Shown here one piece after another: positions 12,323 to 63,806 of a DNA stretch of 64,000 nt. The stretch is from Pseudomonadota bacterium (GTDB taxonomy: Bacteria; Pseudomonadota; Gammaproteobacteria; Eutrophobiales; Eutrophobiaceae), in contig JAYQJO010000001.1 in NCBI GenBank assembly GCA_038142205.1, forward strand, positions 1,205,415 to 1,269,414, written 5' to 3'. The notes beneath the pieces were generated by a model, which saw nothing but the letters and a program-made list of their open reading frames with translations, had not been told where the DNA came from and made no database searches. The translations under genes were made by a program, and so were the position numbers. The stretch's first letter is position 1. The number at the start of each line of letters is the position of its first letter.

Positions 12323-12349
12323 ATTTTCAATCTCGTATATATAATTTAA

Positions 12350-38617: not shown

Positions 38618-38640
38618 CTTAACCAGCTGAGCTACGCGCC
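38618..38640 (-). other. Orphan tRNA 5'-end fragment (acceptor stem plus D-arm GGCGCGTAGCTCAGCTGGTTAAG), not continued into a full tRNA
   Basis: Minus-strand sequence matches the conserved tRNA 5' region including the D-loop TAGCTCAGCTGG, but no anticodon or T arm follows. Confidence 0.35.
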
Positions 38641-39064
38641 TATATAATTATCTCGGACATCTAATTATTGTCCTTAAATAAAGGCGGCATAGAATACAAA
38701 ATTGCAGATAAAATACAACGTATATTTAATTATTGATTTTATCCTAACTTACTTTTTTAAATCCGATTGAACCATATCATTGACCAATTCTTCACAAAGA
38801 GGCTTTTATATTTCCAACTAAGCTCTTTTTTGCTATAGATGGCTATCCTAGCAACGTTTCAACCTCAGTAGGAAGGTAATAACAAGAATCTATTTCTATT
38901 AAAGCGCGATATATTCCATATGGCTCACGATAGCTTACAGTTATCCAGTACGTGTAAATTTTTGCCGCGTCTATTTAGAAACTCAGCTAATAAAACACCA
39001 TCTTATTCGGCGACTACTGCAATCAATGCACGTTTACTCATTAAACAATCATTCCTCATAAAAT

Positions 39065-40011
39065 TTACATTCTTACTATGTCGTTATTATTAGTAAACCA
39101 TTCATAATATTTTTCCAATCCTTCGCGAAGTTTAAATTTGGCTGTCCACCCAATCTTTGTAAGTTTGCTAACATCTAGTACTTTTCTAGGCATACCGTCA
39201 GGTTTAGTGTTATCAAAAACTAATTCACCTTGATAACCAATACATTCTTTTACTCTGTAAGCAAAATCTTTTATTGAAATATCCGTCCCAGTGCCAATAT
39301 TTATATGAGAATCATCTGAATAATGTTTCATTAAAAATACTAAAGCATCCGCCAAATCATCCACATATAGGAATTCACGTTTAGGTTTCCCCGAACCCCA
39401 CACAATACATTCTTTTTCATCATTAATTTTTGCATTATGAAATCGTGATAATAATGCCGCTGGCACATGCGAATTTTCAGGATGAAAATTATCACCGGGC
39501 CCAAATAAGTTTGTCGGCATTGCGGAAATGAAATCGACACCATATTGCCGTCTATATGATTGACATAGCTTAATACCTGCTATTTTGGCTATGGCATACC
39601 ATTCGTTAGTAGGTTCAAGTTCGCCTGTTAGTAATGCATCCTCCGTGACAGGTTGTGTCGCATTTCTTGGATAGATACAAGAAGCTCCTAAAAACAACAG
39701 CTTTTCTACATCATTAATAATGCATTATGTATAAGATTAGTTTCGATCATCAAATTGTCATAAAGAAACTCAGCGGGATAATGACTATTCGCATATATTC
39801 CGCCTACCTTTGCAGCAGCGATAATTACCACATCTGGTTTATTTTTCTTTAACCATTTTGATACAGAATGACCATCTCTTAAATCCAGTTTATCTTTAGT
39901 TACAGTTAGAATTTCACAATCTTCACTATTTAATCTGTTAATAATTGCACTTCCCACCATTCCATTATGACCTGCAATCCATACGCGCTTGTTTTTTAAT
40001 TCATAAATCAT
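39065..40011 (-). CDS. fcl: GDP-L-fucose synthase (Fcl; GDP-4-keto-6-deoxy-D-mannose 3,5-epimerase-4-reductase), frameshifted at ~39714-39719
   Basis: ORFs 39706..40011 ([24 protein letters not shown]) and 39065..39697 ([55 protein letters not shown]) are colinear with Fcl. Confidence 0.8.
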
Positions 40012-40039
40012 CCAATCACCAACTGATTCTTAACAATTA

Positions 40040-42061
40040 TTAACCTGCAATGTTACCACCAGTTCCTAACTGTTGGTTATGAATTAATTTTATTTCATCC
40101 CGTAACTTCGCGGCAGCTTCGAAATCCAGATCTCGTGCGTGTTGATACATTTGTTCTTCCAGTTTTTTGATTTTTTTCATCATCATTTCAGGTGACATTG
40201 CATCATACTTGGCACTATCTTCAGCTACTTTTTTATAGGCATTACTGATTGTTTGCCTATCAGTGTATGCGCCTTCCATAATATCCGTTATGGCTTTTTT
40301 TATACCTTTTGGAACGATACCATTTTCCTTATTAAAGCTAATCTGTTTCTCACGTCGCCGTACTGTTTCATTAATCGCATACTTCATTGAATCTGTTATT
40401 TTGTCAGCATATAAAATGGCTTTGCCATTTAGATTTCTTGCGCCACGACCTATGGTTTGAATTAATGTCGTTCCCGATCTTAGGAAACCTTCTTTATCTG
40501 CATCTAATATCGCGACAAGAGAGACCTCAGGCATATCCAGACCTTCTCTAAGCAGGTTAATACCGACCAGTACATCAAACTCACCTTTGCGAAGGTCGCG
40601 AATGATTTCGACACGTTCAACTGTGTCAATATCTGAGTGTAAATAACGTATTCGCACGCCATGTTCAGAAAGGTATTCAGTTAAGTCTTCTGACATACGT
40701 TTTGTTAGCGTTGTGATCAGAACTCTTTCATCAATAGCCACGCGTTTATTAATCTCTGATAAAACATCATCGACTTGTGTTGTTACCGGGCGCACTTCAA
40801 TTTCAGGATCCAGTAGACCTGTAGGGCGAACTACTTGCTCCACTACTTGATCAGCATGTTCACCTTCGTATTTACCCGGTGTTGCTGAAGTGAAAATCAT
40901 TTGTGGCGCGAGTTTTTCGAACTCTTCAAACCGTAAAGGGCGATTATCCAGTGCAGAAGGTAATCTGAAACCATATTCGACTAGGTTCTCTTTGCGTGCG
41001 CGATCACCTCGATACATCGCGCCTAACTGAGGAATAGTCACATGGCTTTCATCGACAACCAATAGGGCATCATCAGGCAGGTAATCAAACAATGTCGGTG
41101 GTGGTTCACCGGCTTCGCGACCGGATAGATAACGAGAATAGTTTTCGATGCCAGAGCAATAACCTATCTCATTGATCATTTCGATATCAAAGCGCGTTCG
41201 TTGCTCCAGTCGTTGCGCTTCGACTAATTTATTCAGAGACTCCAGTTGTTCCAGCCTCTCTTTCAATTCAACTTTAATCTTTTCCACAGCATCAATCAGA
41301 ATTTGTCGTTCTGTTACATAATGCGTTTTCGGATGTATTGTGATTCGAGGAAGTTTTCGTAAAACTTCACCGGTTAAAGGATCAAACTGGCTTATCGATT
41401 CAATCTCATCATCAAATAGTTCGACACGAACGGCTTCTCGATCAGATTCAGCAGGAAAAATATCAACCACTTCGCCTCTAACTCGAAATGTACCTCGGTG
41501 CAGTTCCACATCATTGCGCGCATATTGAATTTCAGCTAAGCGTCGCAACAGTTTTCTTTGGTCAATTAAATCACCACGACTTAGGTGTAGCACCATTTTT
41601 AAATATCTATCCGGATCACCTAAGCCATAAATAGCAGAAACTGTCGCAACAATAATAGTATCCCTACGCTCTAAAATAGCCTTTGTTGCAGACAAACGCA
41701 TTTGTTCAATATGTTCATTTACAGACGCATCTTTTTCGATGTAGGTATCGGAACTCGGGACATAGGCTTCAGGCTGATAATAATCATAATAAGAGACAAA
41801 GTATTCAACAGCATTATTTGGAAAAAACTCACGCATTTCACCATAGAGTTGGGCGGCTAGCGTCTTATTTGGAGCCAAAATCATTGTTGGGCGCTGTTGC
41901 TCTTGAATGACATTGGCCATGGTAAATGTCTTACCCGACCCCGTCACACCCAGCAGCGTTTGATAGGCCAGACCATCACCTAAACCTTCAATGAGGCTTT
42001 TAATTGCGACAGGCTGGTCGCCTGCAGGAACGTAGTTCGAAATTAGTGCAAATTCTTTCAT
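40040..42061 (-). CDS. uvrB: Excinuclease ABC subunit B
   Basis: 673 aa with GVTGSGKT Walker A, helicase motifs and C-terminal UVR domain. Confidence 0.9.
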
Positions 42062-42135
42062 TTCTCTATTTAGTCTATTGAGTCTTTCGAGTATATTACA
42101 TCGCTTTTATAACAAGCTATTTTAAATCGAAGACA

Positions 42136-43326
42136 ATGTCAGACATATCATTATCACAACGAACACAAAGCATAAAACCCTCCCCTACATTAGCAGTAAC
42201 CGCGCGTGCCGCTGAATTACGTGCTGAAGGGAAAGATATCATTGGCCTTGGTGCTGGAGAGCCAGATTTTGATACGCCGGAACATATAAAAGCAGCAGCA
42301 ATCGAATCACTAAATAAAGGTCAGACCAAATATACTGCGGTCGATGGTACCGTTGAATTAAAAAATGCCATTATTGATAAATTCAAACGTGAAAACAATC
42401 TTGAATATAACAGTAACCAAGTATTGGTTTCATGTGGCGCAAAACACAGTCTTTATAACTTGTTTCAAGCAATTTTAAATCCTGGCGATGAAATTATTAT
42501 TCCAGCACCATATTGGGTATCTTATCCTGATATGGCTAAGCTCGCTGGAGCAGAGCCGGTTATCATCAAAACCAACATTGATGATCATTTTAAAATCACA
42601 CCAAACAAATTACGTGGTGCAATTACTGATAAAACGAGACTGCTTGTTTTTAACAGCCCTTCTAATCCCACTGGTGTGAGTTACAATAAAGAAGAGTTAG
42701 TGGAACTAGGTAAGGTATTGGTTGAGTTTCCTGACGTACTTATTGTCACTGATGATATTTACGAACATATTCTATGGGGACAAGATAAGTTTATTAATAT
42801 TGTTAATGCCTGCCCTGAACTTTATGACCGAACAATTGTTGTTAATGGTGTCTCTAAAGCCTATTCGATGACAGGCTGGCGTATTGGTTATGTTGGCGGC
42901 CCAGAATCAATCGTTAAAGGCATGAAAAAAATTCAGTCTCAAAGCACATCAAATGCAAGTTCCATGGCTCAGGCTGCAGCTATAGCCGCTTTAAATGGCC
43001 CCCAAACCTATATTGAAGAAAGCACAGGTGTTTTTAAGGAAAGGCATGATTTTGTTTTAACATCGCTGCAACAAATTGACGGCATTAACTGTATACCTTC
43101 TGAAGGAACGTTCTATATCTTTCCTGATATGAATGGATTGATAGAAAGGCTCGATGGTATTTCTAACGATATTGAGTTGGCAGAGTTCTTTTTGGAAAAA
43201 GCAGAAGTGGCGATGGTTCCTGGGTCCGCATTTGGCGCGCCAGGCTGCATGAGAATTTCTTTTGCAACGAGTATGGAAAACCTTGAAAAGAGCATAGAAA
43301 GAATAAAGAAGTCATTGAATGCTTAA
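42136..43326 (+). CDS. Aspartate/aromatic aminotransferase (class I PLP-dependent aminotransferase)
   Basis: 396 aa with SKAYSMTGWRIGY lysine-PLP region and NPTG motif. Confidence 0.8.
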   Translation: MSDISLSQRTQSIKPSPTLAVTARAAELRAEGKDIIGLGAGEPDFDTPEHIKAAAIESLNKGQTKYTAVDGTVELKNAIIDKFKRENNLEYNSNQVLVSCGAKHSLYNLFQAILNPGDEIIIPAPYWVSYPDMAKLAGAEPVIIKTNIDDHFKITPNKLRGAITDKTRLLVFNSPSNPTGVSYNKEELVELGKVLVEFPDVLIVTDDIYEHILWGQDKFINIVNACPELYDRTIVVNGVSKAYSMTGWRIGYVGGPESIVKGMKKIQSQSTSNASSMAQAAAIAALNGPQTYIEESTGVFKERHDFVLTSLQQIDGINCIPSEGTFYIFPDMNGLIERLDGISNDIELAEFFLEKAEVAMVPGSAFGAPGCMRISFATSMENLEKSIERIKKSLNA

Positions 43327-43377
43327 TGATGGTTGACCATACTTATCACCATCAGTAGACTACACACCCTTAGATAT

Positions 43378-43453
43378 TCCCCGGTAGCTCAGTCGGTAGA
43401 GCGGGTGACTGTTAATCACTAGGTCGGCAGTTCGAGCCTGTCCCGGGGAGCCA
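43378..43453 (+). tRNA. tRNA-Asn (anticodon GTT)
   Basis: Manually folded cloverleaf: acceptor TCCCCGG/CCGGGGA, D-arm GCTC-AGTCGGTA-GAGC, anticodon loop CTGTTAA, T-arm GGCAG-TTCGAGC-CTGTC, discriminator G, encoded CCA. Confidence 0.85.
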
Positions 43454-43460
43454 TATAATA

Positions 43461-43490
43461 GCCTTAAAGTAATAACTTTAAGGCTTTTTT
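43461..43490 (+). terminator. Rho-independent terminator after aspC/tRNA-Asn
   Basis: gccttaaag-taataa-ctttaaggc followed by T6. Confidence 0.7.
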
Positions 43491-43788
43491 ATTTCGTTGA
43501 GAAATATATAACTATTAAGTTAGTTATCTCTCTGAATCCTATATAACCTGTATTACTATAATCTTTCTAAAACTCTTTTCTAAACCCATTTCGAAACTGT
43601 TAAATATAAAAACAGCATTTAGCCATGCAACAACAAGAGCAAAATATTAGTCTTGAAAAACGAGTAAAAAGTTTAGCTAATTATCTATAGAAATTTAATT
43701 TATTATTCTGTTTTATAACTCTCAAAGAATTTAACAAGCTCAACCATTGCCTCAGTATCAAATTTACAATACCGCTTTAATTGGCTTT

Positions 43789-45186
43789 CTAGTTCTTTTT
43801 TCTATCAGAATCAGTTTCACTTTTAATTGCTTCAATAAAACCTTCTGATGCTGCGGAACCTTCTTTTATTCCGTCTAACTTTGCGTAATCAAACTCTGTG
43901 TTAATCGTTGGCATGACTTTTTTTATAGACCAGGAACCTAGCATATCAGGGTGGTAATAGGAGTTCTTAACTATTGGTAATAAATCTACCAATCTATCAA
44001 TAATAGCGTCCAAAGAAGCTTTCTTATCCGGAAAAATATCTATGAGCGCCTGTATCATTTTTTTCTCATAGTCCGAATACATAAACACAGGACCTTTATC
44101 ACCTAAGTCTGATATTAATTGGTCTGCCAGTTTCTCTAACGGAGGCATATCTTCTAATTCTAGAAACTCAACATGATCAAGCGAATCATAATCGCTGTTA
44201 TGTTGAATATGACATGAATACTGTATTGGCACTGCTAGATAGGGTCGAAACCCAAGCCAAATTGGTATAGCCGGGTTGATAGATTCAAAATCTAAATAAT
44301 ATCTGGGGTATGGCAGGCTATTCAATTCATTCTTAGCCTGTGCATTAACCTCTGGCTTTTCCAATAGTGTAGTCGCATGAATGCGGTGATGCGTCTCACT
44401 AGTAATGTCATCAGACGCCACATCACGAATGTCCTTGATGCCTGCATTGGCCCATTCGGCAAGTTTTTTCTTATCGCCGCCTAAACCTGTTAATGGATAT
44501 TTCGTATCACTCGGCCAACATTGTTTTGTAAATCGGCAATCATAAGGACTTGAACAATGAGAACCGACACTAACATCTAACTTTGTCTCAGCTGAGTACT
44601 TTGAGTCAAATACCATTTTTCCGACTGAGGGTCGTAATTCTTTGGCACGTTCCGTTAAGTCTACCTCTTGCAAAAAGCCTTCATAGCAACCTTCTTTTTC
44701 ATATACAAACTGATTATTAATATGAGCTAAAAAAACACCAGTTAATTCAACGCCACATCTAGACATAACCCAGTATTGAATTGCACATTCTAATTCATGA
44801 TGAAATTCCTTACTGGTTGTTGCTTTTACTTCAATTAATTTATAACCCTCTTTATATGGCTGCAAAATATCAGCGCGGACTAGTATGCCTTCGAACTCAA
44901 AAGCTGCATCATAAATAACTTCATCGTTATTATCTTCTATAATTTCTTTTGTCTCTTCTATAGCATCCTCTAATCCATTGTCATATCCTACTTCTATATT
45001 AATATCACTTTTATAAAGTTCTTTCGCAATATCACCAACCGCACGCCCTGACGCAAATAAAGATTCGACTTGGGGATCATAATCGGCTAATTCGGGCTCG
45101 TTAATTTCAAAATAGAGCATTTTTGGGCATTGCCATACAGAAATCAGGTTAGATTTCGAGAGATACGGATCTTCTTCAGTTGACAT
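43789..45186 (-). CDS. DUF2779-family protein (Cas4/RecB-like PD-(D/E)XK nuclease fold with Fe-S cysteine cluster)
   Basis: 465 aa with an N-terminal Cys (WQCP) plus a C-x5-C-x5-C cluster (HCSSPYDCRFTKQC), the Cas4-like arrangement. I do not recognise any characterised enzyme family. Confidence 0.55.
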   Translation of the reverse strand: MSTEEDPYLSKSNLISVWQCPKMLYFEINEPELADYDPQVESLFASGRAVGDIAKELYKSDINIEVGYDNGLEDAIEETKEIIEDNNDEVIYDAAFEFEGILVRADILQPYKEGYKLIEVKATTSKEFHHELECAIQYWVMSRCGVELTGVFLAHINNQFVYEKEGCYEGFLQEVDLTERAKELRPSVGKMVFDSKYSAETKLDVSVGSHCSSPYDCRFTKQCWPSDTKYPLTGLGGDKKKLAEWANAGIKDIRDVASDDITSETHHRIHATTLLEKPEVNAQAKNELNSLPYPRYYLDFESINPAIPIWLGFRPYLAVPIQYSCHIQHNSDYDSLDHVEFLELEDMPPLEKLADQLISDLGDKGPVFMYSDYEKKMIQALIDIFPDKKASLDAIIDRLVDLLPIVKNSYYHPDMLGSWSIKKVMPTINTEFDYAKLDGIKEGSAASEGFIEAIKSETDSDRKKN

Positions 45187-45559
45187 AATAATTATGAGTA
45201 AATTGCTTTACATTTATTTAGATAATTTAAAACGTTCATTAACATAGCTACCTTTCCATTAATTGAAAGCTTACGCGTTGAGTTTACACTACACATAAAA
45301 AAAAATTCTACATTTTATATCCCCTTACTAAATCCTATTCCAGCAACTACAGGGAAACGTATAGTAATCCGTATTTTTTATTTGGCTTCTTAAAACAAGA
45401 CTAGGCTTACCTTGACACCGAACAAGTGGTTGATAGTCATGACTCATGAAAAACGCTTCAGAATAAAATAAAGTTAGCTGCTGATATTAGCTATTCAAAG
45501 CAGAAAAAATACCCAAAAAACACTATAAACTACTGATTATAAAAGCATTAAATACCAGC

Positions 45560-45598
45560 AAATCATTAGTTTGTAGTTCGAACCTGTGCTGGGGAAGC
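45560..45598 (+). repeat. Degenerate direct repeat of the 3' half of tRNA-Asn (anticodon loop through acceptor end): candidate attR-like scar
   Basis: aatcattagtttgtagttcgaacctgtgctggggaagca versus tRNA 43414..43453 aatcactaggtcggcagttcgagcctgtcccggggagcca, about 75-80% identity over ~40 nt. Confidence 0.5.
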
Positions 45599-45651
45599 AT
45601 ATACAACGCTCATGTACTCTGTACGGGCGACATACATGACATTCTCATAAA

Positions 45652-45684
45652 CAAAAAAAGGGTTTCACAATGAAACCCTTTTTT
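45652..45684 (-). terminator. Bidirectional rho-independent terminator downstream of galU
   Basis: A7-gggtttca-caa-tgaaaccc-T6. Confidence 0.7.
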
Positions 45685-45705
45685 ATTTATCTTGTTTAAC
45701 TGTAT

Positions 45706-46587
45706 CTACTTTACTGTTTCGAGATAAGTTTTAAACGCTTCTTTTATATCTGGATCTTTTAATGCATATTCAACTGAAGCCTGCATATAACCTAGTTTCG
45801 AACCACAGTCATATCTTTTTCCTTCAAATTCATAAGCAAAAACAGATTCTTTTTTTAATAATAAACTTATTGCATCGGTAAGCTGTATTTCATTACCCGC
45901 ACCCTTTGGTGTTTCTTCTAAGCAAGAAAATATTTCGGGACTCAACACATATCTTCCTACGACACCTAAAGTAGAGGGTGCTTTTTTCGGCTCAGGCTTT
46001 TCAACAATACTATTTATGTTAAATAACGACGCATCATCTGTTGATGATGTTTCAACAATGCCGTATTTAGAGGTATCTTCTTTGGGTACATTTTCAACAG
46101 CAATAACACTTTTTATTTGTTGTTGATATTTTTCAACCATCTGTTTGGTAACACCCCGCCCACCATCATCAATTAAATCATCAGGTAAAATGACAGCAAA
46201 TGGTGAATTACCTACAACAGGTTTTGCACATAAAACAGCATGACCCAGTCCTAATGGTTCAGCTTGACGTATGTATATACAAGTAACATTACCAGGAATT
46301 ATCTCTCTAACAATTTGAAGTTTTTCTGTTTTTCTTTTTTTCTCTAACTCTGTCTCAAGCTCATAAGCTTTATCAAAGTGATCTGTAATCGAGCGCTTTG
46401 TTCTACCTGTGATAAAGATGAGTTCTGTCATTCCTGCAGCAATCGCTTCTTCAGCAGCATACTGAATAAGGGGTTTATCAACTATAGGAAGCATTTCTTT
46501 TGGATTTGCTTTTGTAGCGGGCAAAAAACGGGTACCCATGCCTGCTACAGGGAAAACTGCTTTAGTTATTTTTTTCATACGTTTCAT
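45706..46587 (-). CDS. galU: UTP--glucose-1-phosphate uridylyltransferase
   Basis: 293 aa with [34 protein letters not shown] signature. Confidence 0.9.
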
Positions 46588-46690: not shown

Positions 46691-48429
46691 TTATTTCTTA
46701 ACTTTAGCTTCTATTTCTTTCAAATTAATTACAGGGTGTTTTGCGAGTAAAATTTTACTATGCGATGTTTGTTCTCGGCACTCATCATCGTAAAATAATT
46801 CTTCATACATTTTCTCGCCTGGACGCAAGCCGGAATATTCAATATTTATATCGCTATATGGAAGCAAGCCGGAAAGTTTAATCATTTGTTCAGCAAGATA
46901 ATTAATTTTTACCGGCATTCCCATATCTAAAACATAAATTTCACTACCGCTCCCCATAGCATTTGCTTGCAATATTAACTGGCATGCCTCAGGTATAGTC
47001 ATGAAATAACGTGTTATATCTTTATGAGTAACAGTTACAGGCCCACCTTTTCTTATTTGTTCTTTAAACAATGGTACAACACTACCTTCTGAGTCTAAAA
47101 CATTACCAAAACGTACTGTTATAAAATGCGTACTACTGCTTTCACTAATAATTTCCGTATATATTTCAGCTATACGCTTTGTGGCTCCTAAAATATTAGT
47201 TGGTTTAACTGCTTTATCAGTAGAAATTAAAACAAAACTTTCACAACTGTTTTCGTGAGCCGCTATAGCTATATTCTTTGTTCCTAATATATTATTTCTA
47301 ACAGCTTCACGAGGTTGTCTTTCTAGAATCGGAACATGCTTATATGCCGCCGCATGAAAAATAATATCTGGCTGATACTGTTTAATAGTTTTATCGACTA
47401 AAGTTTTATCGCACAAATCACCCAGTATAAATTCGCATTTTACATTTAATTGTGACAAAGACTGTTCAGTCCGATACAAGTTAAATTCATTTATTTCAAA
47501 TACTATTAATAAAGATGGTTCTAATGAAGCAATTTGTTTACATAGCTCAGAACCAATAGACCCCCTCCTCCAGTTACTAAAATCACTTTATTACTAGTAC
47601 TAGTTTGTATCTCCTGCCAATCTAATTCAACCTTTTCTCTGCCCAATAAATCCTCAATAGATACCTCACGAAGTTTAGAAAGAGCTTCTTGACTTCCAAC
47701 CATATCTTGAATACTTGGTAGTGTTCGAATTGGCAGACCCGTTCCCTCACATATATTCACTATTTTCTGCATTTGAATACTTGTTGCAGATGGAATCGCT
47801 ATTATTATTAGATTTATATCAAATTGCTGTATAAATTCTTGTACATGTTTAATCTCTCCATAAATTTTTATTCCATGAATTTGCGAACCTTTTAGTGAAA
47901 CATTATCATCTAATATAGCTATGGGCATATAACTACCTTCTCTTAAGCTTTCCCTAATTAGTAATTCTGCAGCTCGCCCAGCACCAATTATTAATACACG
48001 TTTATTATCTATCATTGAATTCATAGATAATCTGCGATCTTTCCATAGGCGATAACCTAATCTAGGAGCGCCAAGTAAAAATATTAGAAATACCGGATAT
48101 AAAATTAGTATAGATCTAGGAACACCATCCAATCGATTAATGTAAAATAAAAAGATAGCTATTATTATTGTCCCTACGAAAGAAGCGCGAAATATATTCC
48201 ATAGATCGGGCAAACTCGCAAAACGCCATAACCCGCGATAAAAACCAAATAATTTTGAAATACCGCCCTGAACAAGAATTATTAGCGGGATTGTCCATAG
48301 CATTGGGCTCCAAACATCGATTAACTGATAATCAAAGTTAAATCTTGCCATCCAGGCTAATAACCATGCGAACACGATCATTATTAAATCGTGAATAATT
48401 GCTAAGTGACGGTTATTTATACGGGGCAT
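46691..48429 (-). CDS. Membrane-anchored UDP-sugar 4,6-dehydratase / polysaccharide biosynthesis protein (WbpM/CapD/PglF family), frameshifted at C5 run 47561-47565
   Basis: ORF 47521..48429 gives the N-terminal TM region plus the start of a Rossmann motif (VILVTGGGG). One extra G restores GSIGSELCKQIASLEP... into ORF 46691..47479 (HAAAYKHVP etc.). Confidence 0.8.
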
Positions 48430-48489
48430 AACTTATTTAAAATATATATATTAATTAATCAAAAAACTATATCAAACTTTACCATACGG

Positions 48490-49704
48490 CTATTTTGAAC
48501 ATGCATGCAAAAATACTTTATGCACTGCTTTAGCCACATCCATTAAGTCGTTTTCAGTATTTCCAGGATGTATTAAAAAAGCAAGGCTGGATCTACCCAA
48601 TTTGTTAGCATTATGCAGAGATGAATAATCTTTTAGTTTTAAATTTTCAAATGCCGTTTCACGATATACTTCCGGACAACTACCAATAAAGCAAGGAACT
48701 CCTTCTGCGCATATTGCACCTAGAATTTTTAATTGATCCCAATTCGATTTTAAATAACTTGACTCTATAAAAGCATATAAACGGTAATAGCTATGCTTAA
48801 TATCTTCTGGTGGATTAGGTATAGTTAGAGCGGGGATATTTTGCAGTTCTGAAGTTAAAAGCTCAGCATTACGTCTACGTTGCACCAACCATTGTGGTAA
48901 TTTTTTTAGTTGAATACGTCCTATAGCAGCCTGCATTTCTGTCATTCTATAATTTGAACCAAAAGAATCATGCAGCCATCTAAACCCAATTTTTTCAGCT
49001 GGGCTATGGCACAAAGTATAGTTTTTTCCATGATCTTTATATGACCATGCCCGTTCAAATACTTCTTGATTGTTGGTTAGCAACATTCCACCTTCCCCGC
49101 CAGTAGACATAATCTTGTCTTGGCAAAAAGAGTATGCTGCTACATCTCCAAATGAGCCTACTACTCTATTCTTATAGGTCGCTCCATGAGCTTGTGCACA
49201 ATCTTCAACAATATATAAATTTTTCTGCTTGGCATATTCAGATATTGATGTCATGTCACAAGGCCACCCACCAAGATGTACAACGATTATTCCTTTTGTT
49301 CTTTCAGTTAATACTTCACTAATTGTCTCAACACTAATATTTTGTGAAACAGGTTCTATATCTGCAAAAACAGGTGTAGCACCGCATGCCACTACAGAAC
49401 TTGCAGATGCAAAAAATGTTCGACTTGGCACAATAACTTCATCACCCTTTCCAATTCCTAATGAACGAAGAGCTAACTCAAGCGCTACTGTTCCATTTGC
49501 AACGGCAACAGCATATTCAACGCCTACATGACTTGCATATTCTTTTTCAAATGTTTTGCATTCTGTACCTGTCCAATAATTAACTTTTCCACTGCGTAAT
49601 ACATTCATCGCAGCGTCGACTTCATCTTTTTCGTAGACAGGCCAAGGTGGGTTTTGATTGACCCTTATTTTTTCACCACCATCAATTGCTAATAAATTAC
49701 TCAT
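48490..49704 (-). CDS. DegT/DnrJ/EryC1/StrS-family PLP-dependent sugar aminotransferase
   Basis: 404 aa; DegT-family sugar aminotransferase signature (the PLP-binding Lys region is not pinned to a specific residue). Confidence 0.75.
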   Translation of the reverse strand: MSNLLAIDGGEKIRVNQNPPWPVYEKDEVDAAMNVLRSGKVNYWTGTECKTFEKEYASHVGVEYAVAVANGTVALELALRSLGIGKGDEVIVPSRTFFASASSVVACGATPVFADIEPVSQNISVETISEVLTERTKGIIVVHLGGWPCDMTSISEYAKQKNLYIVEDCAQAHGATYKNRVVGSFGDVAAYSFCQDKIMSTGGEGGMLLTNNQEVFERAWSYKDHGKNYTLCHSPAEKIGFRWLHDSFGSNYRMTEMQAAIGRIQLKKLPQWLVQRRRNAELLTSELQNIPALTIPNPPEDIKHSYYRLYAFIESSYLKSNWDQLKILGAICAEGVPCFIGSCPEVYRETAFENLKLKDYSSLHNANKLGRSSLAFLIHPGNTENDLMDVAKAVHKVFLHACSK

Positions 49705-50350
49705 TATTTTTTACTACACGAGCAGGTGAACCAACAACAATTTTACCAGATGGAACATCATTAATCACGGTAGAGTTAGCGCCAACTACTGAACCCTCTC
49801 CGACTCTCACCCCTGATAAAATAACAGAGCCTGCACCTATAAATACGTTTTTTTCTACAACAACTCCGCCACACAGTGTAGAACTTGGCGCGACATGTAC
49901 ACCACTATGAATTTCACAATCATGCTCGATTACTGCATTAGAATTTATAATCACGTTTTTATTAATTTTAACGTCAGGATTAATTACAGCTGAAGGCATT
50001 ATCATTGAACCACATTCAATATCTACATCACTACTAACATATGCACTTGGGTGCACAACTGTAGTCAATTTAAAATCATTTTTAACAAGCCACTCTGCAA
50101 CTTTCAACCTTACTTGATTATTTCCTATTGCTACAATACCAGCATCCACATTATTACGCTGAGCAATCAACTCTTCTCTCCCACCAATACACTTATAGTT
50201 GAGAACCTTAGTGTTCCTTGTGTTTTCATTATCATCAATTAAAAATGTTAACTCAAACTCGTCAATACTACGTACAGAATCTGCAACGATTTTTGCATGA
50301 CCACCAGCCCCATAAATAAATATCGATAACTTATTCATCTGCTGACTCAT
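49697..50350 (-). CDS. Sugar N-acetyltransferase (left-handed beta-helix hexapeptide repeat; PglD/NeuD family)
   Basis: Rossmann-like N-terminus IFIYGAGGHAK followed by hexapeptide repeats. The start was chosen at an internal Met to avoid overlapping the upstream gene; the track ORF extends to 50380. Confidence 0.65.
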   Translation of the reverse strand: MSQQMNKLSIFIYGAGGHAKIVADSVRSIDEFELTFLIDDNENTRNTKVLNYKCIGGREELIAQRNNVDAGIVAIGNNQVRLKVAEWLVKNDFKLTTVVHPSAYVSSDVDIECGSMIMPSAVINPDVKINKNVIINSNAVIEHDCEIHSGVHVAPSSTLCGGVVVEKNVFIGAGSVILSGVRVGEGSVVGANSTVINDVPSGKIVVGSPARVVKNNE

Positions 50351-50922
50351 TCCCTTTGAATTTTGGCATAGTATTATCACTTGAATTATTCACACCGCTT
50401 CCTTTTACCACATTTAAAACAGTCAATATTAAAATTTTAACATCAAATAAAAGGTTATGATTATTAACATAATACACATCCAATCTTAATCGTTCGCCCC
50501 AAGATGTATCATTTCTTCCATTAACCTGAGCCCAACCCGTTATCCCGGGCTTAACATCATGTCGACGACTTTGTTCTTTATTATATAACTCTAAATACTC
50601 AATCAATAATGGTCTCGGGCCTACAATACTCATTTCTCCTTTGATCACATTATAGAGCTGAGGAAATTCATCAATACTAAATTTACGTATAAATTGACCT
50701 AGTGGAGTCATTCTTTCCATATCAGGTAGTAGCTCACCATTGGCATCTCTGAGATCTTTCATAGTTCTAAACTTATATAATTTAAAAGGCTTTGCATGCT
50801 TCCCTGGTCTTTTTGAACAAACAAGATTGGAGAGCCGAGAGACACTAAGATTAATAAAGCAGCAACAACCAAAACAGGAAAGAGAAGTATCAATAGTGAT
50901 ACAGATAAAACCAGATCAAATA
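50331..50922 (-). CDS. Undecaprenyl-phosphate sugar phosphotransferase (PglC/WbaP C-terminal domain family; initiating transferase), frameshifted at T5 run 50810-50814
   Basis: The track ORF holds the catalytic domain (PRPLLIEYLELYNKEQ, VKPGITGWAQV). The upstream frame encodes the PglC-type N-terminus VKRIFDLVLSVSLLILLFPVLVVAALLILVSLGSPILFVQK from a GTG start. Confidence 0.75.
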
Positions 50923-50928
50923 TTCTTT

Positions 50929-52047
50929 TCACAGCTTCATTACTTTTATTATTTCATTATTAATCAGTCTGACATCAAACTTACTTTCTACAATTTCACG
51001 GCTAACCTTACCCATAGTTGAAGCTAAATTATTTGATGAAATGAAGTTTTCCATTGCAATAACTAACTCATCAACATTTTTGACTGTTATCAAAAACCCG
51101 TTCTTTTTATCAATAACTGTTTCACGGCAGCCCGGAACATCTGTTGTAATAATAGCTCGTCCCATTGACATTGCTTCCAAAACTGATCTTGGCATTCCTT
51201 CACGATAAGAGGGCAATACAACTACAGATGCATCTCTTACATAGGGCCTTACATCATCCGTCTCTCCTAAATAATCAATCATATTTTTATCCTTTAATTT
51301 TTTCAAATCATCAAAAGATATTGCAGACGGGTTATCATCGAGAGGCCCTAGAACCTTAAACTCAATCTTAGGGTACTTTTTTTTTCAATCTTCTTGCTGC
51401 TTCTATATACTCCATTATTCCCTTATCTTTTAATAGCCTGGCGACCATCAAAAACACTAGATCTCGTTGTGGTAATGGCTGAATCTGAAAAAAGTCTGTA
51501 TCAACACCAGAGCCATTAGTGATCGAGTAGCTCGACTCTTTCTTAATAATTTTATTACTAATAAAAACATCCCTATCATCTTTATTTTGAAAAAAACATT
51601 CGTATTATTTTTCAATGCCAGCTTATACATTCTTGGCACTATTAGTTTTACTACTTTTTGTCTAAATGTTCTTGCTTTAAGAAAAGTACTACCTAAGCCT
51701 GTTATTAATGCATATTGACGCTTCACTCTACAAATTTTTGCTGCAATCAATCCATATACAACTGGTTTAATTGTATAACCGACAACAATATCTGGCTTAA
51801 TTTTTAAAATTAATTTAATAAACCAAATAATTAAGACTAAATCCTTAAATGGATTAATCCCCGTCCGCTCTAATGGTAATGAGTAGTAATGACTTCCCCT
51901 ATTATTAAACCACTCACTTACCTGCCTATCTTTCCCACCTGCGCATGCGAACACATCATGCTTTCGATTCAATAATTCATCTATCAGATTACCTCTAAAA
52001 TTGATGAGTGAACGAGGCCAACTTCCAATAATTAATATTCTTGACAC
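50929..52047 (-). CDS. Glycosyltransferase family 1/4 (GT-B fold), carrying two homopolymer frameshifts (T9 at 51377-51385; A7 at 51590-51596)
   Basis: ORF 51457..52047 is the N-domain. A third frame gives GSGVDTDFFQIQPLPQRDLVFLMVARLLKDKGIMEYIEAARRLKKK. ORF 50929..51306 holds the EGMPRSVLEAMSMGRAIITTDVPG C-domain motif. Confidence 0.7.
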
Positions 52048-52137
52048 AGTTAATTAATTTTAATTTTCATATTCAATAGAACACTTGAATATGTGCTTTT
52101 AAACAATGAATAGTTTACTAAAATTGTACTTATTACA

Positions 52138-52865
52138 TTAAGTTGGTCTGCATACTAATATGAATGACTGAGCAAATTTTTCTGGTATTTTTAAAAACCT
52201 GCATATTTTTTCAATGGGGATTATTAGCTTTGATGCTAATAAACCTAGCCATGGACCTGTCCTAGGATAAAAACTATAAAACATTACTTTTTCTATTTTA
52301 AAACCAGATTCTTTCAACTCAGTTTCAATGCAGCTTAAACTCATCGTGTTTGCTATATTTTTATTCTTTATTTTGTTTCTAATTCTATAAACCATGCCAA
52401 GCGGACTATCAGAATTAACATGTACATTAATCACCAAATACCCATTTTTGTTGATCATATTATACATTTCATTCAAAACATCGAGCCTTAACTGTTTTTG
52501 AGCATTTAAGAAAAACGAAATGCAGTTATTACATCAAATTTTTCATTCAAACTATTTGAAGTAATGTCTTGCTTTAGAAGCTTAGAATTGACGCAGTTAG
52601 CCTTCGAGATCTCAAGCATACTATCAGAAACATCAACTCCACACGTATCATCAAAATAACTTTCAGCTAATTTTATAATTCGACCAGTACCACAAGCAAA
52701 ATCTAAATATTTCACTTTATTTTCGCTTGAAATTTTTTCAAAGATATTTTCTAAAAGAGGCTTTTCTAATAAAGACCACTGTGAACCATAAAATCCTACC
52801 TTATAAGTTTCTGAGTAGAATTTTCCATACCCATCACTAGAGTGGCTTTCTCGATAATCTTGCAT
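52138..52865 (-). CDS. Class I SAM-dependent methyltransferase, frameshifted at A5 run 52511-52515
   Basis: N-terminal ORF has motif I LDFACGTGR. One added base joins ...AFRFFLNAQKQLRLDVLNEMYNMINKNGYLVI to the C-terminal ORF. Confidence 0.7.
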
Positions 52866-52902
52866 ATAACTAACCTGATAAAATTTAAATAGACTTCAGT
52901 TA

Positions 52903-54033
52903 TTAAGTAGAAAACAAACTTCTGTATGTTTGGTCATATGATTCTAGACATTTACTCCAGCCAAAATTTTCTTCAACTCTAATACGACTATTATTAGCCA
53001 TCTTCTCCCTAAGTTGCTTATCATTGCCCAAACGAACAATTGCATTACATATTTGTTCTGGGTTTTTAGAGTCCACCAGAATCCCATTAAAGTCATTAAT
53101 AACAGCTTCTGGATTACCACCTACTTTAGTTGCTATAACTGGGAGGCAATTACTCATCATTTCAAGAATACTGTTGGAAAAACCTTCTTCATGTGAACAT
53201 AACAACCCGATATCAGCTGCTTCTAAATACTCAGTCACATTGTTTTGTGGACCAAACCAACGAACATTATTTATTAAATTAAGTTCCCTTGTTTTTTCTC
53301 TAAGCATCAAGCCATAGCCATCATCTCTTCCCACACATAATACTTCCCAATTCTGTTTAATTTTACCCTTTAATTTGACCAGCGCATTTAACAAGTCCAT
53401 ATGCCCTTTGTATGTCATTAAGTTTGCTACCACTACTATTACCAAGCTATCTTGACTGATTTTAAGTTCATCTCTTTGCCTTATTTTAACTTCACTTGTA
53501 ACTCTATCTCTCAGAGTTACACCGTTATATATAAGACCTAACTTATGCTCAGGAACATTCTCTTTCTTTAATTGTTCTAGCACACAATTTGAATTACCTA
53601 ACATAAAATCAATTTTATTGTGCAACCAATATTCTAGTTTTTTTAGCAATTTATATTTACTTTGATAATTGTTAAGACATCTTCTGCTCATCACTCGTTT
53701 ACTACCAGGGAAAAATAAAGAACATAGTCCCCCTACTAAATAAGCTTCAGGCAAGAAATAATGTGTCACATCCGGTTTTATTTTATGAATATAAAAGAAT
53801 AATTTTGAAAAGTTTGTAAGTAAATTAAGAGCTTTATTGGTTTTAATAGTACCAGTTAACATCGTCACATCAGCAGTTAAATATTTACTTTTCTGAACCT
53901 CATTTCCTTTCATAACATACAGATAAACATCATATTTTGACTTATCAAGCATATTTGATAGATGTATCAAATGATTTTCAGTGCCACCTATTCCCAGTTG
54001 ATTGATCACGAATAATATTTTTATTTTTTGCAT
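52903..54033 (-). CDS. Glycosyltransferase family 4 (GT1 superfamily)
   Basis: 376 aa; C-terminal EGFSNSILEMMSNCLPVIATKVGGNPE motif. Confidence 0.75.
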   Translation of the reverse strand: MQKIKILFVINQLGIGGTENHLIHLSNMLDKSKYDVYLYVMKGNEVQKSKYLTADVTMLTGTIKTNKALNLLTNFSKLFFYIHKIKPDVTHYFLPEAYLVGGLCSLFFPGSKRVMSRRCLNNYQSKYKLLKKLEYWLHNKIDFMLGNSNCVLEQLKKENVPEHKLGLIYNGVTLRDRVTSEVKIRQRDELKISQDSLVIVVVANLMTYKGHMDLLNALVKLKGKIKQNWEVLCVGRDDGYGLMLREKTRELNLINNVRWFGPQNNVTEYLEAADIGLLCSHEEGFSNSILEMMSNCLPVIATKVGGNPEAVINDFNGILVDSKNPEQICNAIVRLGNDKQLREKMANNSRIRVEENFGWSKCLESYDQTYRSLFST

Positions 54034-54051
54034 TTGATCTATTCTCTGCTA

Positions 54052-54885
54052 CTAATCAACAGTATTATGCTTAAACTTATTGAATAACATATTAATTGCT
54101 GCTTTTTGTTTAAGGCTCTCACCATACTGTTTATTAAAATAACAATATGCAGTCGCATATGAAAACTTGTCAGCCCAACTCATGTCCACATCACATTCTG
54201 ACTTATCTCTATAACCTTTTAAAAATGCTTCTTTTAATGCAGGAAGCTTATTCCATTTCATATGAAAATAGTTCCATACTGGTACTAACCCATTCAAACA
54301 AGAAATCATATTTCCAATATCGATATATATTGGACCTAAATTACTTGTCCTAAATGTTGTGAAGTTATTAGGAGAGGCATCATATATTACGATATTATTC
54401 TCTCCGTTTATATTATTTACACTAATATTCGAAAAACCAAAATCACAATGCATGTATGTCATAGGCAATCTTCTTGTATAACTATCAATGTCATTAACCC
54501 CGCATTTCCTCATTGCTTTGATAAACGGCTCAGAAGGGAACCAGTAATTTCTTTCATTAAGCATCATACTATTGTGCAATGTTGCTAATACGCCTCCTAC
54601 TCTCTCAAATAATGAAACAGCATCTCTTTCTTTAATAAGATCTTTCATGAAAGCAATATATTCTTCTCTTATAGATTTTTCTGATTTTATATTCTCAAAC
54701 TTTACGGTATTTCCATTCTTTTCGAGTGGCTCAGGAAATATAAACGCGAGCTTTTTAGACAAATCAAATATATGCCTCGATTTTATGTACTCCTTATCAG
54801 AGTCAACATCATATTTTTTTATAACCTCATTATCTTTTAGAAATACATTCTTACTTTTATTTAAATATATATTCTTATCTTCCAT
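54052..54885 (-). CDS. Protein-kinase-like fold phosphotransferase (APH/choline-kinase/LPS-kinase-like) embedded in the polysaccharide cluster
   Basis: 277 aa with Brenner catalytic motif HCDFGFSN (HxDxxxxN) and downstream IDIGN (DxG-like metal-binding) motif. Confidence 0.5.
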   Translation of the reverse strand: MEDKNIYLNKSKNVFLKDNEVIKKYDVDSDKEYIKSRHIFDLSKKLAFIFPEPLEKNGNTVKFENIKSEKSIREEYIAFMKDLIKERDAVSLFERVGGVLATLHNSMMLNERNYWFPSEPFIKAMRKCGVNDIDSYTRRLPMTYMHCDFGFSNISVNNINGENNIVIYDASPNNFTTFRTSNLGPIYIDIGNMISCLNGLVPVWNYFHMKWNKLPALKEAFLKGYRDKSECDVDMSWADKFSYATAYCYFNKQYGESLKQKAAINMLFNKFKHNTVD

Positions 54886-55003
54886 ATTTTATACTCTATA
54901 CATCATTTTATTTTCCAATAGACATTTTCTAATTAATAAGAAAAAACATGCAGACTGAATCAATGCAACCACCAACTCAATAATTACTGCACCTACAATT
55001 CCA

Positions 55004-56166
55004 TTATCTGGAACCACCATAAAACAGCCGATAGAAAGCAACAGCAAAGAGAAAAAAACTTACAATCAATTGTGCTTTAAATTGCCTAATCGCGGTTAAC
55101 ACATATACCATGTATAAAACCATATTATTTGCAGCAGCAGCAAACATTATTAATAAAAGCTTGTCTGAATGGCCTGACAATTTGTCTCCATAGATTACTG
55201 AAATAATAAAATCGCCAAAAAAATAGATGAAAAACATTCCTAGCGTACCAATTACCATGCCTGTTATTGCAAGCCTATATAACAACCCCATAAATTCTTT
55301 ACTGTTTTTTTTCATGATAACACTTTGATAATTTAGATAAATAAGGTGTTCCAAATGAAGCTGCAATAAGTGAAGAAGCTACAGAAAAATATACAAGTGC
55401 AGCATAAATACCCAATGTACTTGTGCCATTATAAAAAGCTATAAAATATTTTGAAATATTTGGTAATAAAGAAGAAAAGAAAGCAACTCCACACAGGGGT
55501 AATGCTAAAAAGAAAATTTCTTTTATACTCTCAAGACGACCTTTGAAAAAAAAAATTCAGTACCGAAGGAGATGATAACTCTGTTTTTAATAATACTGCA
55601 TTCAAATCATATAATAATAATATAATCACATGACTAACAATCAACCCCAACGCAATATGAATTAAATTCCCACCTTTATAGATAATTAAAATTGAAATGA
55701 TTACTGAAACAATTGATTTCAATATTAACGATAACCCAACATTGAATAAATCATCGTTCTTTTGAAAAAAACCATAAATAATATCACTTAATGATTCAAA
55801 ACACTTTGCGCCCGCGATTATCAGCAAAACCCAACGCATATGAGCATTATCAATAAAAACAAATGAATAACTTATAATTATAAACAGGGCTGTCAAAGAA
55901 GTGATAAATCGCAAACTATAATAATCCGTGTTGGCATGCTCTGCTTTAGCATCAGATGTTATCACAAGCCTCAAACGCATATTTGTTAACATAAATACAG
56001 GGGCAGAAATAGCAAAAGCTAGTGCGTATATACCTACTGAATCTAAACCTAATACATTTGTAATTAATATTACTATTAACCATGAACTTGCCGCATAGCC
56101 AATATTACCAGCTGTATACCAAAGTGAATTTTTTAGTATTGAATTACTTAATAAACTTCTTAACAT
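55004..56166 (-). CDS. wzx: Wzx-type O-antigen/polysaccharide flippase (MOP/PST family), with at least two frameshifts in A10 (55546-55555) and T8 (55305-55312) runs
   Basis: Hydrophobic N-terminal ORF 55531..56166 and C-terminal ORF 55004..55366. A third frame across 55367..55530 gives membrane-protein-like sequence (LALPLCGVAFFSSLLPNISKYFIAFYNGTSTLGIYAALVYF...). Confidence 0.6.
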
Positions 56167-56218
56167 AAATATTAATACAACTATATTTTAATGCCGCATT
56201 TTCATATAGAAAAAATAT

Positions 56219-58170: not shown

Positions 58171-58248
58171 GATAATTTTTTTTTCATAGGAATTGATTCT
58201 TAAAAATAACTTTCAGCAGTAGAAAAATATAAATTTCTAGTATTTATA

Positions 58249-59613: not shown

Positions 59614-59708
59614 TGTTATGATTTATTAGTCATATTCTAATGAATATCTATAAATAATTTTTATTGTGTTTTTATATAAGTCTATCAACATATTTTATGT
59701 CATTAAAA

Positions 59709-60596: not shown

Positions 60597-60608
60597 GAAT
60601 AAAAATGA

Positions 60609-63687: not shown

Positions 63688-63806
63688 AATTAGAACCTAA
63701 TCAATAATTAAGGGTTAATTAAAATACTATTAGTAAGTAAGGAATGAAGAAAAAACGGTATTGGAAAAACATTAACTAAGATGGAATTATATTTACTAGA
63801 AAAATC

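What the first reader, a model, noticed from the sequence alone, without database searches (positions are those of the whole stretch)
43378..45598. tRNA-Asn followed by a 2.1-kb insert carrying only a DUF2779 Cas4-like nuclease and bounded by a degenerate copy of the tRNA 3' half
A ~40-nt sequence at 45560..45598 aligns to the anticodon-loop-to-CCA portion of tRNA-Asn (43414..43453) at roughly 75-80% identity. That is the classic footprint of a tyrosine-integrase-mediated insertion at a tRNA gene. The bounded segment contains no integrase, only a 465-aa DUF2779 protein with a Cas4/RecB-like Cys cluster. It may be a decayed island remnant whose surviving cargo is a stand-alone nuclease, a possible minimal defence or anti-plasmid function. 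Alternatively the repeat marks one end of a larger island that includes the low-GC polysaccharide cluster downstream.
Basis: partly seen in the sequence, partly recalled or inferred. Interest (0 to 1): 0.65.

Follow-up and report, generated by a model that had tools for sequence, protein, structure and literature searches.

The report
Decayed tRNA-Asn island carrying one nuclease
A 2.1-kb leftover of an old mobile element sits next to a tRNA-Asn gene in an uncultured marine gammaproteobacterium and keeps only one gene, an uncharacterised double nuclease; this is an ordinary kind of genomic scar, but here it is well documented.

Summary
tRNA-Asn(GTT) lies at 43378..43453. A 77%-identical direct copy of its 3' part (anticodon loop to CCA, plus TATA) lies at 45561..45603. 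It scores above every shuffle and above 45 of 48 comparable real loci. Between the two copies there is only a DUF2779 gene and no integrase.

Comparative data support an old insertion:
- Distant gammaproteobacteria have tRNA-Asn directly next to the NTP-transferase/capD polysaccharide cluster, which is the empty site.
- Four lineages of the window's own clade share the DUF2779 insert and independently decayed copies of the repeat.
- Other genomes carry intact integrase-bearing islands at the same tRNA, with repeats of the same extent.
- One lineage (L170) has a second island stacked in front of the DUF2779 segment.

The alternative of a larger island that includes the polysaccharide cluster is refuted.

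The protein is a fusion of a Cas4-like, four-cysteine PD-(D/E)XK nuclease and a DEDDy 3'-5' exonuclease. This architecture has already been described computationally for PF11074. The gene is under purifying selection (dN/dS 0.14-0.20). In the window a 1-nt homopolymer deletion removes its last 29 residues, including the Y-x3-D motif; this may be an assembly error. A defence role is untested and has no specific support. The finding is a new member of a known kind and of low to moderate interest.

The parts
43378..43453 (+). tRNA-Asn (GTT), the intact target gene
   Evidence: ARAGORN; Rfam RF00005, 65.7 bits. The uvrB-aspC-tRNA-Asn order is conserved in 58 of 80 related loci.
43414..43457 (+). 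Proximal repeat (attL-like core): tRNA positions 37-76 plus TATA
   Evidence: Aligns to 45561..45603. It has the same extent as the intact att repeats in L046 (positions 28-80) and L016 (positions 32-79).
43460..43491 (+). Intrinsic-terminator hairpin directly after the tRNA, inside the insert and presumably brought in by the element
   Evidence: Terminator scan: 11-bp stem plus T tail. Conserved in L081, L083 and L170.
43702..45186 (-). DUF2779 gene: Cas4-like 4-Cys PD-(D/E)XK nuclease fused to a DEDDy 3'-5' exonuclease. The intact allele is 494 aa. As sequenced, the ORF is 43789..45186 (465 aa).
43796..43801 (-). Homopolymer (T6 here, T7 in the conspecific contigs) whose 1-nt deletion frameshifts the gene and removes residues 465-494, including Y473 and D477
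   Evidence: Alignment with L081 and L082. The next frame encodes the missing 29 residues identically.
45187..45560 (.). 374-nt non-coding region upstream of the DUF2779 start, with patches conserved between lineages. It holds no integrase remnant.
   Evidence: Alignment of window, L081, L082 and L083. tblastn with four recombinases gives only noise. No Rfam hit. The promoter scan shows no enrichment over shuffles.
45561..45603 (+). Distal degenerate repeat (decayed attR-like copy of the tRNA-Asn 3' part plus TATA)
   Evidence: 34 of 44 columns identical to the tRNA segment, while only 2 of the 7 columns 5' of it match. At least one lineage keeps the tRNA base at 39 of 44 positions. Statistics.
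45654..45684 (.). Bidirectional terminator between the distal repeat and the NTP-transferase gene; ancestral flank
   Evidence: Terminator scan: 14-bp stem on both strands. Conserved in L083 and L170.
45706..46587 (-). NTP-transferase, first gene of the polysaccharide cluster. It is the ancestral neighbour of tRNA-Asn and is not part of the insert.
   Evidence: Pfam PF00483. It lies 34-158 nt from tRNA-Asn in L005, L019, L036 and L037.

Best explanation
The segment is a fixed, decayed remnant of an integrative element that entered the 3' half of tRNA-Asn by site-specific (tyrosine-integrase type) recombination.

Proposed history:
- Integration happened in the common ancestor of a small clade of uncultured marine gammaproteobacteria.
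- It duplicated the tRNA segment from the anticodon loop to just past CCA.
- The proximal copy is part of the working tRNA and stays conserved. The distal copy has no function and has drifted to 77% identity.
- The integrase and any other element genes were deleted before the four known lineages split.
- What survived is about 2.15 kb: a terminator, the DUF2779 gene and its upstream region.

DUF2779 has been kept by purifying selection. I infer that it is a stand-alone DNA-end-processing enzyme that joins a Cas4-like Fe-S PD-(D/E)XK nuclease to a DEDDy 3'-5' exonuclease, able to resect both strands of a DNA end. Whether it serves repair or recombination, or the degradation of foreign linear DNA, is not shown.

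In the window itself the gene carries a homopolymer frameshift that would disable the exonuclease site. This is more likely an assembly error than a real pseudogene.

Shown: the repeat, the empty sites, the shared ancestry, the lack of an integrase, the fold and motifs, and the selection. Inferred: the type of integrase, that DUF2779 was cargo of the element, and its biochemical role.
For: - The repeat is real and directional.
- Similarity stops at the anticodon loop in all lineages: only 2 of the 7 columns 5' of it match. Intact att repeats at the same tRNA in L046 and L016 start at positions 28 and 32 and end 3-4 nt past the CCA end. Those two islands encode P4-type integrases.
- Empty sites: tRNA-Asn is followed after 34-158 nt by the NTP-transferase gene in L005, L019, L036 and L037. 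None of 80 related loci has a DUF2779 gene within 10 kb.
- The closest species representatives, L001 and L002 (aspC 87% and 79% identical), lack it. L001 carries a different element there: a serine recombinase, a tyrosine integrase, a primase and an HNH protein.
- The insert and its repeat are present in the conspecific contigs L081 and L082, and in L083, L170-172 and L173. The distal copies decay independently.
- In L170 the proximal copy is itself only a partial tRNA (positions 27-81). It is preceded by an integrase fragment, IS fragments and other genes, which is tandem accretion.
- dN/dS is 0.14-0.20. Flanking uvrB and aspC are 96% identical where DUF2779 is 86%.
- Fold and motifs. The two-domain architecture is as described in PMC3985635 and PMC13621843.
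Against: - No integrase or fragment of one survives in the insert, so the recombinase type is inferred only from the geometry of the repeat and from neighbouring genomes.
- The composition of the insert (GC 0.36-0.38) barely differs from the surroundings.
- All empty-site genomes are distant (aspC 62-69% identical). The nearest relatives have other DNA at the site, so a clean empty/occupied pair at close range is missing.
- No donor element carrying a close DUF2779 homologue was found; the next hit is 55% identical, on a 1.7-kb contig. Elsewhere the family shows no association with mobile elements. DUF2779 as cargo is therefore parsimonious but not proven.
Confidence: 0.8

Rival explanations
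1. The distal sequence is the remnant of a second, tandem tRNA-Asn gene that decayed. DUF2779 simply lies between two former tRNA genes, and no mobile element was involved.
For: Multiple tRNA-Asn copies are common in gammaproteobacteria (general knowledge). No integrase is present.
Against: Similarity begins abruptly at tRNA position 37 in all four lineages, and the 5' side matches no better than chance, at 2 of 7 columns. The extent equals that of genuine att repeats in L046 and L016. None of the 58 loci that have a tRNA-Asn after aspC shows a second tRNA-Asn gene nearby. The same site receives islands repeatedly.
Confidence: 0.06
2. DUF2779 is ancestral core at this locus and was lost in the genomes that show tRNA-Asn directly beside the NTP-transferase gene. 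The repeat is unrelated to its presence.
For: Within the window's clade the gene is conserved at this locus in every contig found and is under purifying selection.
Against: This would need many independent, precise losses in distant lineages (L005, L019, L036, L037). It leaves the flanking tRNA-half repeat unexplained. DUF2779 homologues in other gammaproteobacteria sit in unrelated contexts.
Confidence: 0.05
3. The repeat marks one end of a larger island that includes the low-GC polysaccharide cluster.
For: GC drops to 0.29-0.35 from about 45.7 kb to 64 kb. The inner part of the cluster differs between conspecific strains.
Against: The cluster lies outside the interval bounded by the tRNA and the repeat. 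Its NTP-transferase/capD end abuts tRNA-Asn in distant genomes. There is no further tRNA-Asn-like repeat up to 64000. Low GC and strain variability are normal for O-antigen and capsule clusters (general knowledge).
Confidence: 0.03
4. The similarity is a chance match.
For: The match is short (44 columns) and only 77% identical.
Against: None of 300 shuffles reaches the score. It lies above 45 of 48 real-locus controls. The copy is conserved at the same position in four lineages, which together retain 39 of the 44 tRNA bases.
Confidence: 0.01

Closest known systems
Genomic islands integrated in the 3' end of tRNA genes by tyrosine integrases, for example islands at asparagine tDNAs in Klebsiella (PMC4891358) and the integrative elements mapped by Islander/TIGER (PMC7192596)
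   Same: It sits directly 3' of a tRNA gene. It is bounded by a direct repeat of the tRNA 3' part that starts at the anticodon loop and runs a few bases past CCA. The site is empty in other genomes, and the same tRNA is used repeatedly by other islands (L001, L016, L030, L046, L170).
   Different: It has no integrase and only one gene. The distal repeat is 23% diverged, and the insert is fixed in a whole clade. It is a fossil, not an active element.
CIMEs (cis-mobilizable elements): decayed ICE or IME remnants that keep attL and attR and can form tandems by accretion (PMC5704250; ICEberg 2.0, PMC6323972)
   Same: [quoted passage not shown] In L170 a second element has integrated next to it, giving the tandem predicted by the accretion model.
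   Different: A CIME is defined by att sites that can still recombine. Here the distal site is heavily mutated, and no excision or mobilisation can be shown. CIMEs were described in Firmicutes at other target genes.
PF11074/DUF2779 proteins: RNase H-like family F.17 (PMC3985635) and MMSYN1_0389 of JCVI-syn3.0 (PMC13621843)
   Same: It has the same two-domain architecture: an N-terminal Cas4-like PD-(D/E)XK domain with D...E.K (D106, E119, K121) and a C-terminal DEDD-type exonuclease with Tyr in the h/y position (D299, E301, Y473, D477).
   Different: This gammaproteobacterial branch keeps all four Cas4 cysteines (C20, C211, C217, C223), whereas the Mycoplasma protein has only two. Here the gene arrived as island cargo. 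The window's copy is frameshifted.
CRISPR-associated Cas4 (SSO0001 4ic1; type I-C Cas4 8d3l; Cas4-Cas1 7mi4) and the Cas2-DEDDh fusion (8fyc)
   Different: There is no CRISPR-like array in the 64-kb window, and none of the ORFs of the window that were scanned against Pfam is a Cas protein. The cas genes themselves were not searched for across the whole window, and some neighbouring ORFs, such as the one at 49697..50380, were not scanned. It is a solo fusion protein of 494 aa.

Membership tests
tRNA-integrated genomic island (tyrosine-integrase type) | Lies immediately 3' of a tRNA gene | tested here: met
   The insert starts at the 3' end of tRNA-Asn at 43453.
tRNA-integrated genomic island (tyrosine-integrase type) | Bounded by a direct repeat of the tRNA 3' segment | tested here: met
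   43414..43457 against 45561..45603: 34 of 44 identical, none of 300 shuffles reaches the score, and it lies above 45 of 48 real-locus controls.
tRNA-integrated genomic island (tyrosine-integrase type) | Encodes an integrase | tested here: not met
   tblastn with two P4-type integrases, one XerC-like integrase and one serine recombinase gives only noise in the insert (E > 0.4). Across the whole window there is no real hit: the one match with a low E-value is the tRNA-Asn sequence itself, which the L001 recombinase ORF overlaps. The only ORF of 60 aa or more inside the bounded interval is DUF2779.
tRNA-integrated genomic island (tyrosine-integrase type) | Absent from the same site in other genomes (empty site) | tested here: met
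   In L005, L019, L036 and L037 the tRNA-Asn is 34-158 nt from the NTP-transferase gene. None of 80 loci has a DUF2779 gene.
tRNA-integrated genomic island (tyrosine-integrase type) | Atypical base composition | tested here: inconclusive
   GC is 0.355-0.377 in 43-45 kb, against 0.39-0.42 upstream and 0.33-0.35 downstream.
CIME (cis-mobilizable element) | Has lost its recombination and transfer genes but keeps both att sites | tested here: inconclusive
   The genes are lost. Both repeats are present, but the distal one is 23% diverged with an indel.
CIME (cis-mobilizable element) | Can be excised or mobilised in cis by an element integrated alongside it | not testable with these tools
   A tandem arrangement exists in L170, but excision cannot be assessed from the sequences.
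PF11074 / DUF2779 | Pfam match above the gathering score | tested here: met
   121.8 bits against a cut-off of 23.3.
PF11074 / DUF2779 | N-terminal Cas4-like PD-(D/E)XK domain with D...E.K | tested here: met
PF11074 / DUF2779 | C-terminal DEDD(h/y) exonuclease motifs | tested here: inconclusive
CRISPR-associated Cas4 | Four cysteines for an Fe-S cluster | tested here: met
   C20 is nearly invariant. C211, C217 and C223 are invariant.
CRISPR-associated Cas4 | Encoded with cas1/cas2 or next to a CRISPR array | tested here: not met
   There is no CRISPR-like tandem array in the window. The neighbours scanned are aspC, uvrB and sugar-nucleotide enzymes. The 86 other DUF2779 loci have no recurrent partner. 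The window was not searched specifically for cas genes.
Known anti-phage defence systems (PADLOC-DB v2) | Significant match to a defence-system protein model | tested here: not met
   Only weak Cas4 hits, the best at E 8.6e-5 and 21 bits.

The most novel reading that the evidence does not exclude
DUF2779 could be a single-gene immunity or genome-policing nuclease that was delivered by a tRNA-targeting element and then domesticated. The Cas4-like Fe-S domain and the DEDDy exonuclease would together destroy linear or nicked foreign DNA from both strand ends without a helicase partner. The att-flanked one-gene module would be the minimal surviving, and possibly once cis-mobilisable, form of a defence island.
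Probability: 0.12. Interest if true: 0.6.

Novelty: new member of a known kind. Interest (0 to 1): 0.25.

Why it matters
The case gives a clean, datable example of how a tRNA-integrated element decays to a single retained gene. The att scar decays independently in four lineages, and a second island has stacked on top in one of them. It also shows that a member of the widespread but uncharacterised DUF2779 (Cas4-DEDD fusion) family was acquired horizontally and then kept under selection. That makes this clade a natural presence/absence system for asking what the protein does. Neither point changes current understanding: tRNA-Asn hotspots, decayed islands and the domain architecture of DUF2779 are all already described.

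Tried and rejected
- The exact-sequence look-up of the window's 465-aa product found nothing, because the window copy is frameshifted. The 494-aa P0001 did work.
- Sequence searches of the PDB, with the single protein and with the profile, gave nothing useful. Only fold comparison worked.
- A search for integrase remnants in the insert of the window, L081 and L083 gave only noise. The one 'hit' of the L001 serine recombinase in the window (43415..43471) is just the tRNA sequence, because that ORF overlaps tRNA-Asn in L001.
- Phage records and IMG/VR contigs contain no DUF2779 relatives. Plasmids: 32 of 72,556 records, all below 37% identity.
- Neighbourhood analysis of 86 DUF2779 loci found no conserved partner, no adjacent tRNA (only tRNA-Gln 3.7-5.3 kb away in one clade) and no integrase-like neighbour.
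- Rfam found only the tRNA.
- The promoter scan found no more sites than the shuffles, so no promoter is assigned.
- Base composition did not discriminate the insert.
- The larger-island, tandem-tRNA, core-gene-lost-elsewhere and chance readings were each considered and rejected, for the reasons given under the rival explanations.
Full report
**1. The observation**

ARAGORN finds a single tRNA in the window, tRNA-Asn(GTT) at 43378..43453 on the + strand. Rfam agrees at 65.7 bits.

A local alignment of the tRNA against every 200-nt tile of the window, on both strands, gives a score of 30 at 45.5-45.6 kb. The next best score anywhere is 21. None of 300 shuffles of the 10 kb downstream reaches 30; the Gumbel p is about 7e-4, or about 3e-3 for the whole window on both strands.

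As a control on real sequence, I ran the same test on 48 uvrB-aspC-tRNA-Asn loci from other genomes. In 45 of them the best score is 23 or less. The other three have obvious att repeats.

The match runs from tRNA position 37, just after the anticodon, to the CCA end and four bases beyond: 43414..43457 against 45561..45603. It is identical at 34 of 44 columns, with one 1-nt gap. Only 2 of the 7 columns on the 5' side match. Seven of the nine substitutions are G/C to A/T.

The only ORF of 60 aa or more inside the interval is 43789..45186 on the minus strand: 465 aa, PF11074 DUF2779, E 2.7e-35.

**2. Where the window comes from, and the state of the locus elsewhere**

The aspC-like aminotransferase upstream of the tRNA retrieves 80 loci from species-representative genomes. 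The best are uncultured gammaproteobacterial MAGs: OFTM147 at 87% and IP29b_bin.112 at 79%.

The uvrB-aspC-tRNA-Asn order is widely conserved; 58 of the 80 loci have the tRNA after aspC. In L005, L019, L036 and L037 the tRNA is followed after 49, 103, 158 and 34 nt by the orthologue of the window's NTP-transferase gene (45706..46587), and in L005 and L019 by capD as well. That is the empty site. The polysaccharide cluster is therefore the ancestral neighbour of tRNA-Asn and not part of an island.

None of the 80 loci has a DUF2779 gene within 10 kb.

**3. The same insert in the window's own clade**

The 494-aa protein P0001, 99% identical to the window's product, is encoded on two independent contigs (L081, L082) in exactly the same place. 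Over 38620..46572 they are 99.3% identical to the window.

Proteins about 86% identical (P0002, P0003, P0004) are also encoded between the NTP-transferase gene and the tRNA-Asn side, in L083, L170-172 and L173-175. In L083, uvrB and aspC are 96% identical to the window. In the species representatives that lack the gene, L001 and L002, they are 79-87% identical. The insertion is therefore shared by one clade and absent from its nearest sampled relatives.

The distal repeat is present in every lineage and is decaying independently. Identity to the tRNA segment is 80% in L081, 68% in L083 and 64% in L170. Taken together, at least one lineage keeps the tRNA base at 39 of 44 positions. This excludes chance and shows a single ancestral event.

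**4. tRNA-Asn is a recurrent integration site**

- L046 carries a 7.3-kb island bounded by a 53-nt repeat (tRNA positions 28-80).
- L016 carries a 9.1-kb island bounded by a 48-nt repeat (positions 32-79).
- Each of these two encodes a P4-type integrase (Arm-DNA-bind_3, Phage_int_M, Phage_integrase) next to the distal repeat. L046 also has scaffold-like and small-terminase-like genes.
- L030 has a 1.7-kb integrase-less insert (Exo_endo_phos plus DUF5329) bounded by a 26-nt repeat.
- L001 has a serine recombinase, a tyrosine integrase, a primase and an HNH protein after the tRNA.
- In L170 and L172 the sequence that forms the 3' half of the working tRNA in the window is only a partial tRNA (positions 27-81), and ARAGORN finds no gene there. 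It is preceded by a C-terminal integrase fragment, IS fragments and methyltransferase genes. So a second element has integrated in front of the DUF2779 segment. This is the tandem accretion described for decayed elements (PMC5704250).

**5. No recombinase is left**

tblastn with four recombinases from these loci finds nothing in the insert of the window, L081 or L083. Across the whole window it finds nothing except the trivial tRNA overlap of the L001 serine recombinase ORF.

The 374-nt region upstream of DUF2779 and the roughly 210 nt downstream of it contain no Rfam family. An element-side terminator follows the tRNA at 43460..43485, and a bidirectional terminator at 45654..45684 precedes the NTP-transferase gene.

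**6. The protein**

- An AlphaFold model built on 28 homologues is confident: pLDDT 89.5, pTM 0.85.
- The conserved residues fit both active sites. They are C20, D106, E119, K121, C211, C217 and C223 for the Cas4-like domain, and D299, E301, Y473 and D477 for the exonuclease.
- This is the architecture already inferred for PF11074 by Majorek et al. (PMC3985635, family F.17) and for MMSYN1_0389 (PMC13621843). One difference is that all four Cas4 cysteines are kept here.
- PADLOC gives only weak Cas4 hits.
- The family is absent from 50,697 phage records and from IMG/VR, and is present on 32 of 72,556 plasmids.
- In 86 other loci it has no conserved neighbour, no adjacent tRNA and no integrase-like neighbour.
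- Within the clade, dN/dS is 0.14-0.20, so the gene is maintained by selection.

**7. State of the gene in the window**

A single-base deletion in a T run (43796..43801, T6 against T7) ends the ORF at residue 465. The next frame encodes the missing 29 residues identically to P0001. They include the invariant YCxFDTxAM stretch with Y473 and D477.

Two more genes within 10 kb are split relative to L081: the epimerase at 39718 and capD between 47479 and 47587. Of these three breaks, the two mapped to the base (39718 and 43796..43801) are 1-nt deletions in short single-base runs, and both independent conspecific assemblies that cover the DUF2779 site (L081 and L082) are intact there. I therefore consider assembly error more likely than real pseudogenes, but the tools cannot decide this.

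**8. Interpretation**

The best explanation is an ancient site-specific integration into the 3' half of tRNA-Asn, followed by loss of the integrase and all other element genes, and retention of DUF2779 under selection.

By the standard model for 3'-end tRNA integration, the proximal copy (now part of the tRNA) came from the element, and the distal copy is the displaced chromosomal 3' half. This follows from established knowledge of such elements and was not tested here.

The function of DUF2779 remains inferred: a helicase-independent DNA-end nuclease with both polarities. The defence reading is possible but unsupported.

**9. Novelty and score**

Everything here belongs to known kinds: tRNA-Asn hotspots (PMC4891358), decayed att-flanked remnants and accretion (PMC5704250, PMC6323972, PMC7192596), and the DUF2779 architecture (PMC3985635, PMC13621843). 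It is a new, well-resolved member. Interest is 0.25.

Noticed in passing
window 38620..38641 (minus strand): Only the first 22 nt of tRNA-Val(GAC) are present. Colinearity with the conspecific contig L081 stops exactly inside this gene, and the other 55 nt are nowhere in the window. To the left the window has ADH_zinc and DUF1329-type genes where L081 has thrS-infC-rpmI-rplT-pheST. This could be a rearrangement, an insertion into tRNA-Val, or an assembly chimera.
   Followed up: partly
window 39718; 43796..43801; 47479..47587: Three genes within about 10 kb are split relative to the conspecific contig L081: the epimerase (101 + 210 aa), DUF2779 (465 instead of 494 aa) and the capD/PglF-like gene (302 + 262 aa instead of 612). 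The two breaks mapped to the base are 1-nt deletions in short single-base runs. They are either assembly errors or real pseudogenes.
   Followed up: partly
window ~48130..64000: The inner part of the low-GC polysaccharide cluster is not colinear with the conspecific L081; only patches of about 70% identity remain. The cluster end next to tRNA-Asn is shared. This looks like a strain-variable O-antigen or capsule cluster.
   Followed up: partly
L001 11253..12900: In the closest species representative, a 537-aa large serine recombinase ORF (11287..12900, minus strand) ends inside the 3' half of tRNA-Asn (11253..11328). A tyrosine integrase, a primase and an HNH protein follow. This is a different element using the same tRNA.
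   Followed up: partly
L030 11330..13034: A second integrase-less mini-insert at the same tRNA-Asn: 1.7 kb with an Exo_endo_phos protein and a DUF5329 protein, bounded by a 26-nt repeat of the tRNA 3' end.
   Followed up: partly
L084, L087/L088, L089, L128: In another gammaproteobacterial clade DUF2779 sits at a fixed border (DUF2779, 2-Hacid_dh, SSF transporter..., tRNA-Gln, prs, rplY, pth). Variable genes of defence-island type lie immediately upstream: Mrr_cat, a NERD/UvrD-like helicase, AAA_14/DUF4143, a ResIII helicase, WYL and Fic.
   Followed up: no
window 58652..58700: A perfect TTCTTA x 8.2 hexamer repeat lies inside a Wzy_C (O-antigen ligase/polymerase-like) ORF at 58249..59613. It stays in frame, and it is a possible site of length variation.
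   Followed up: no
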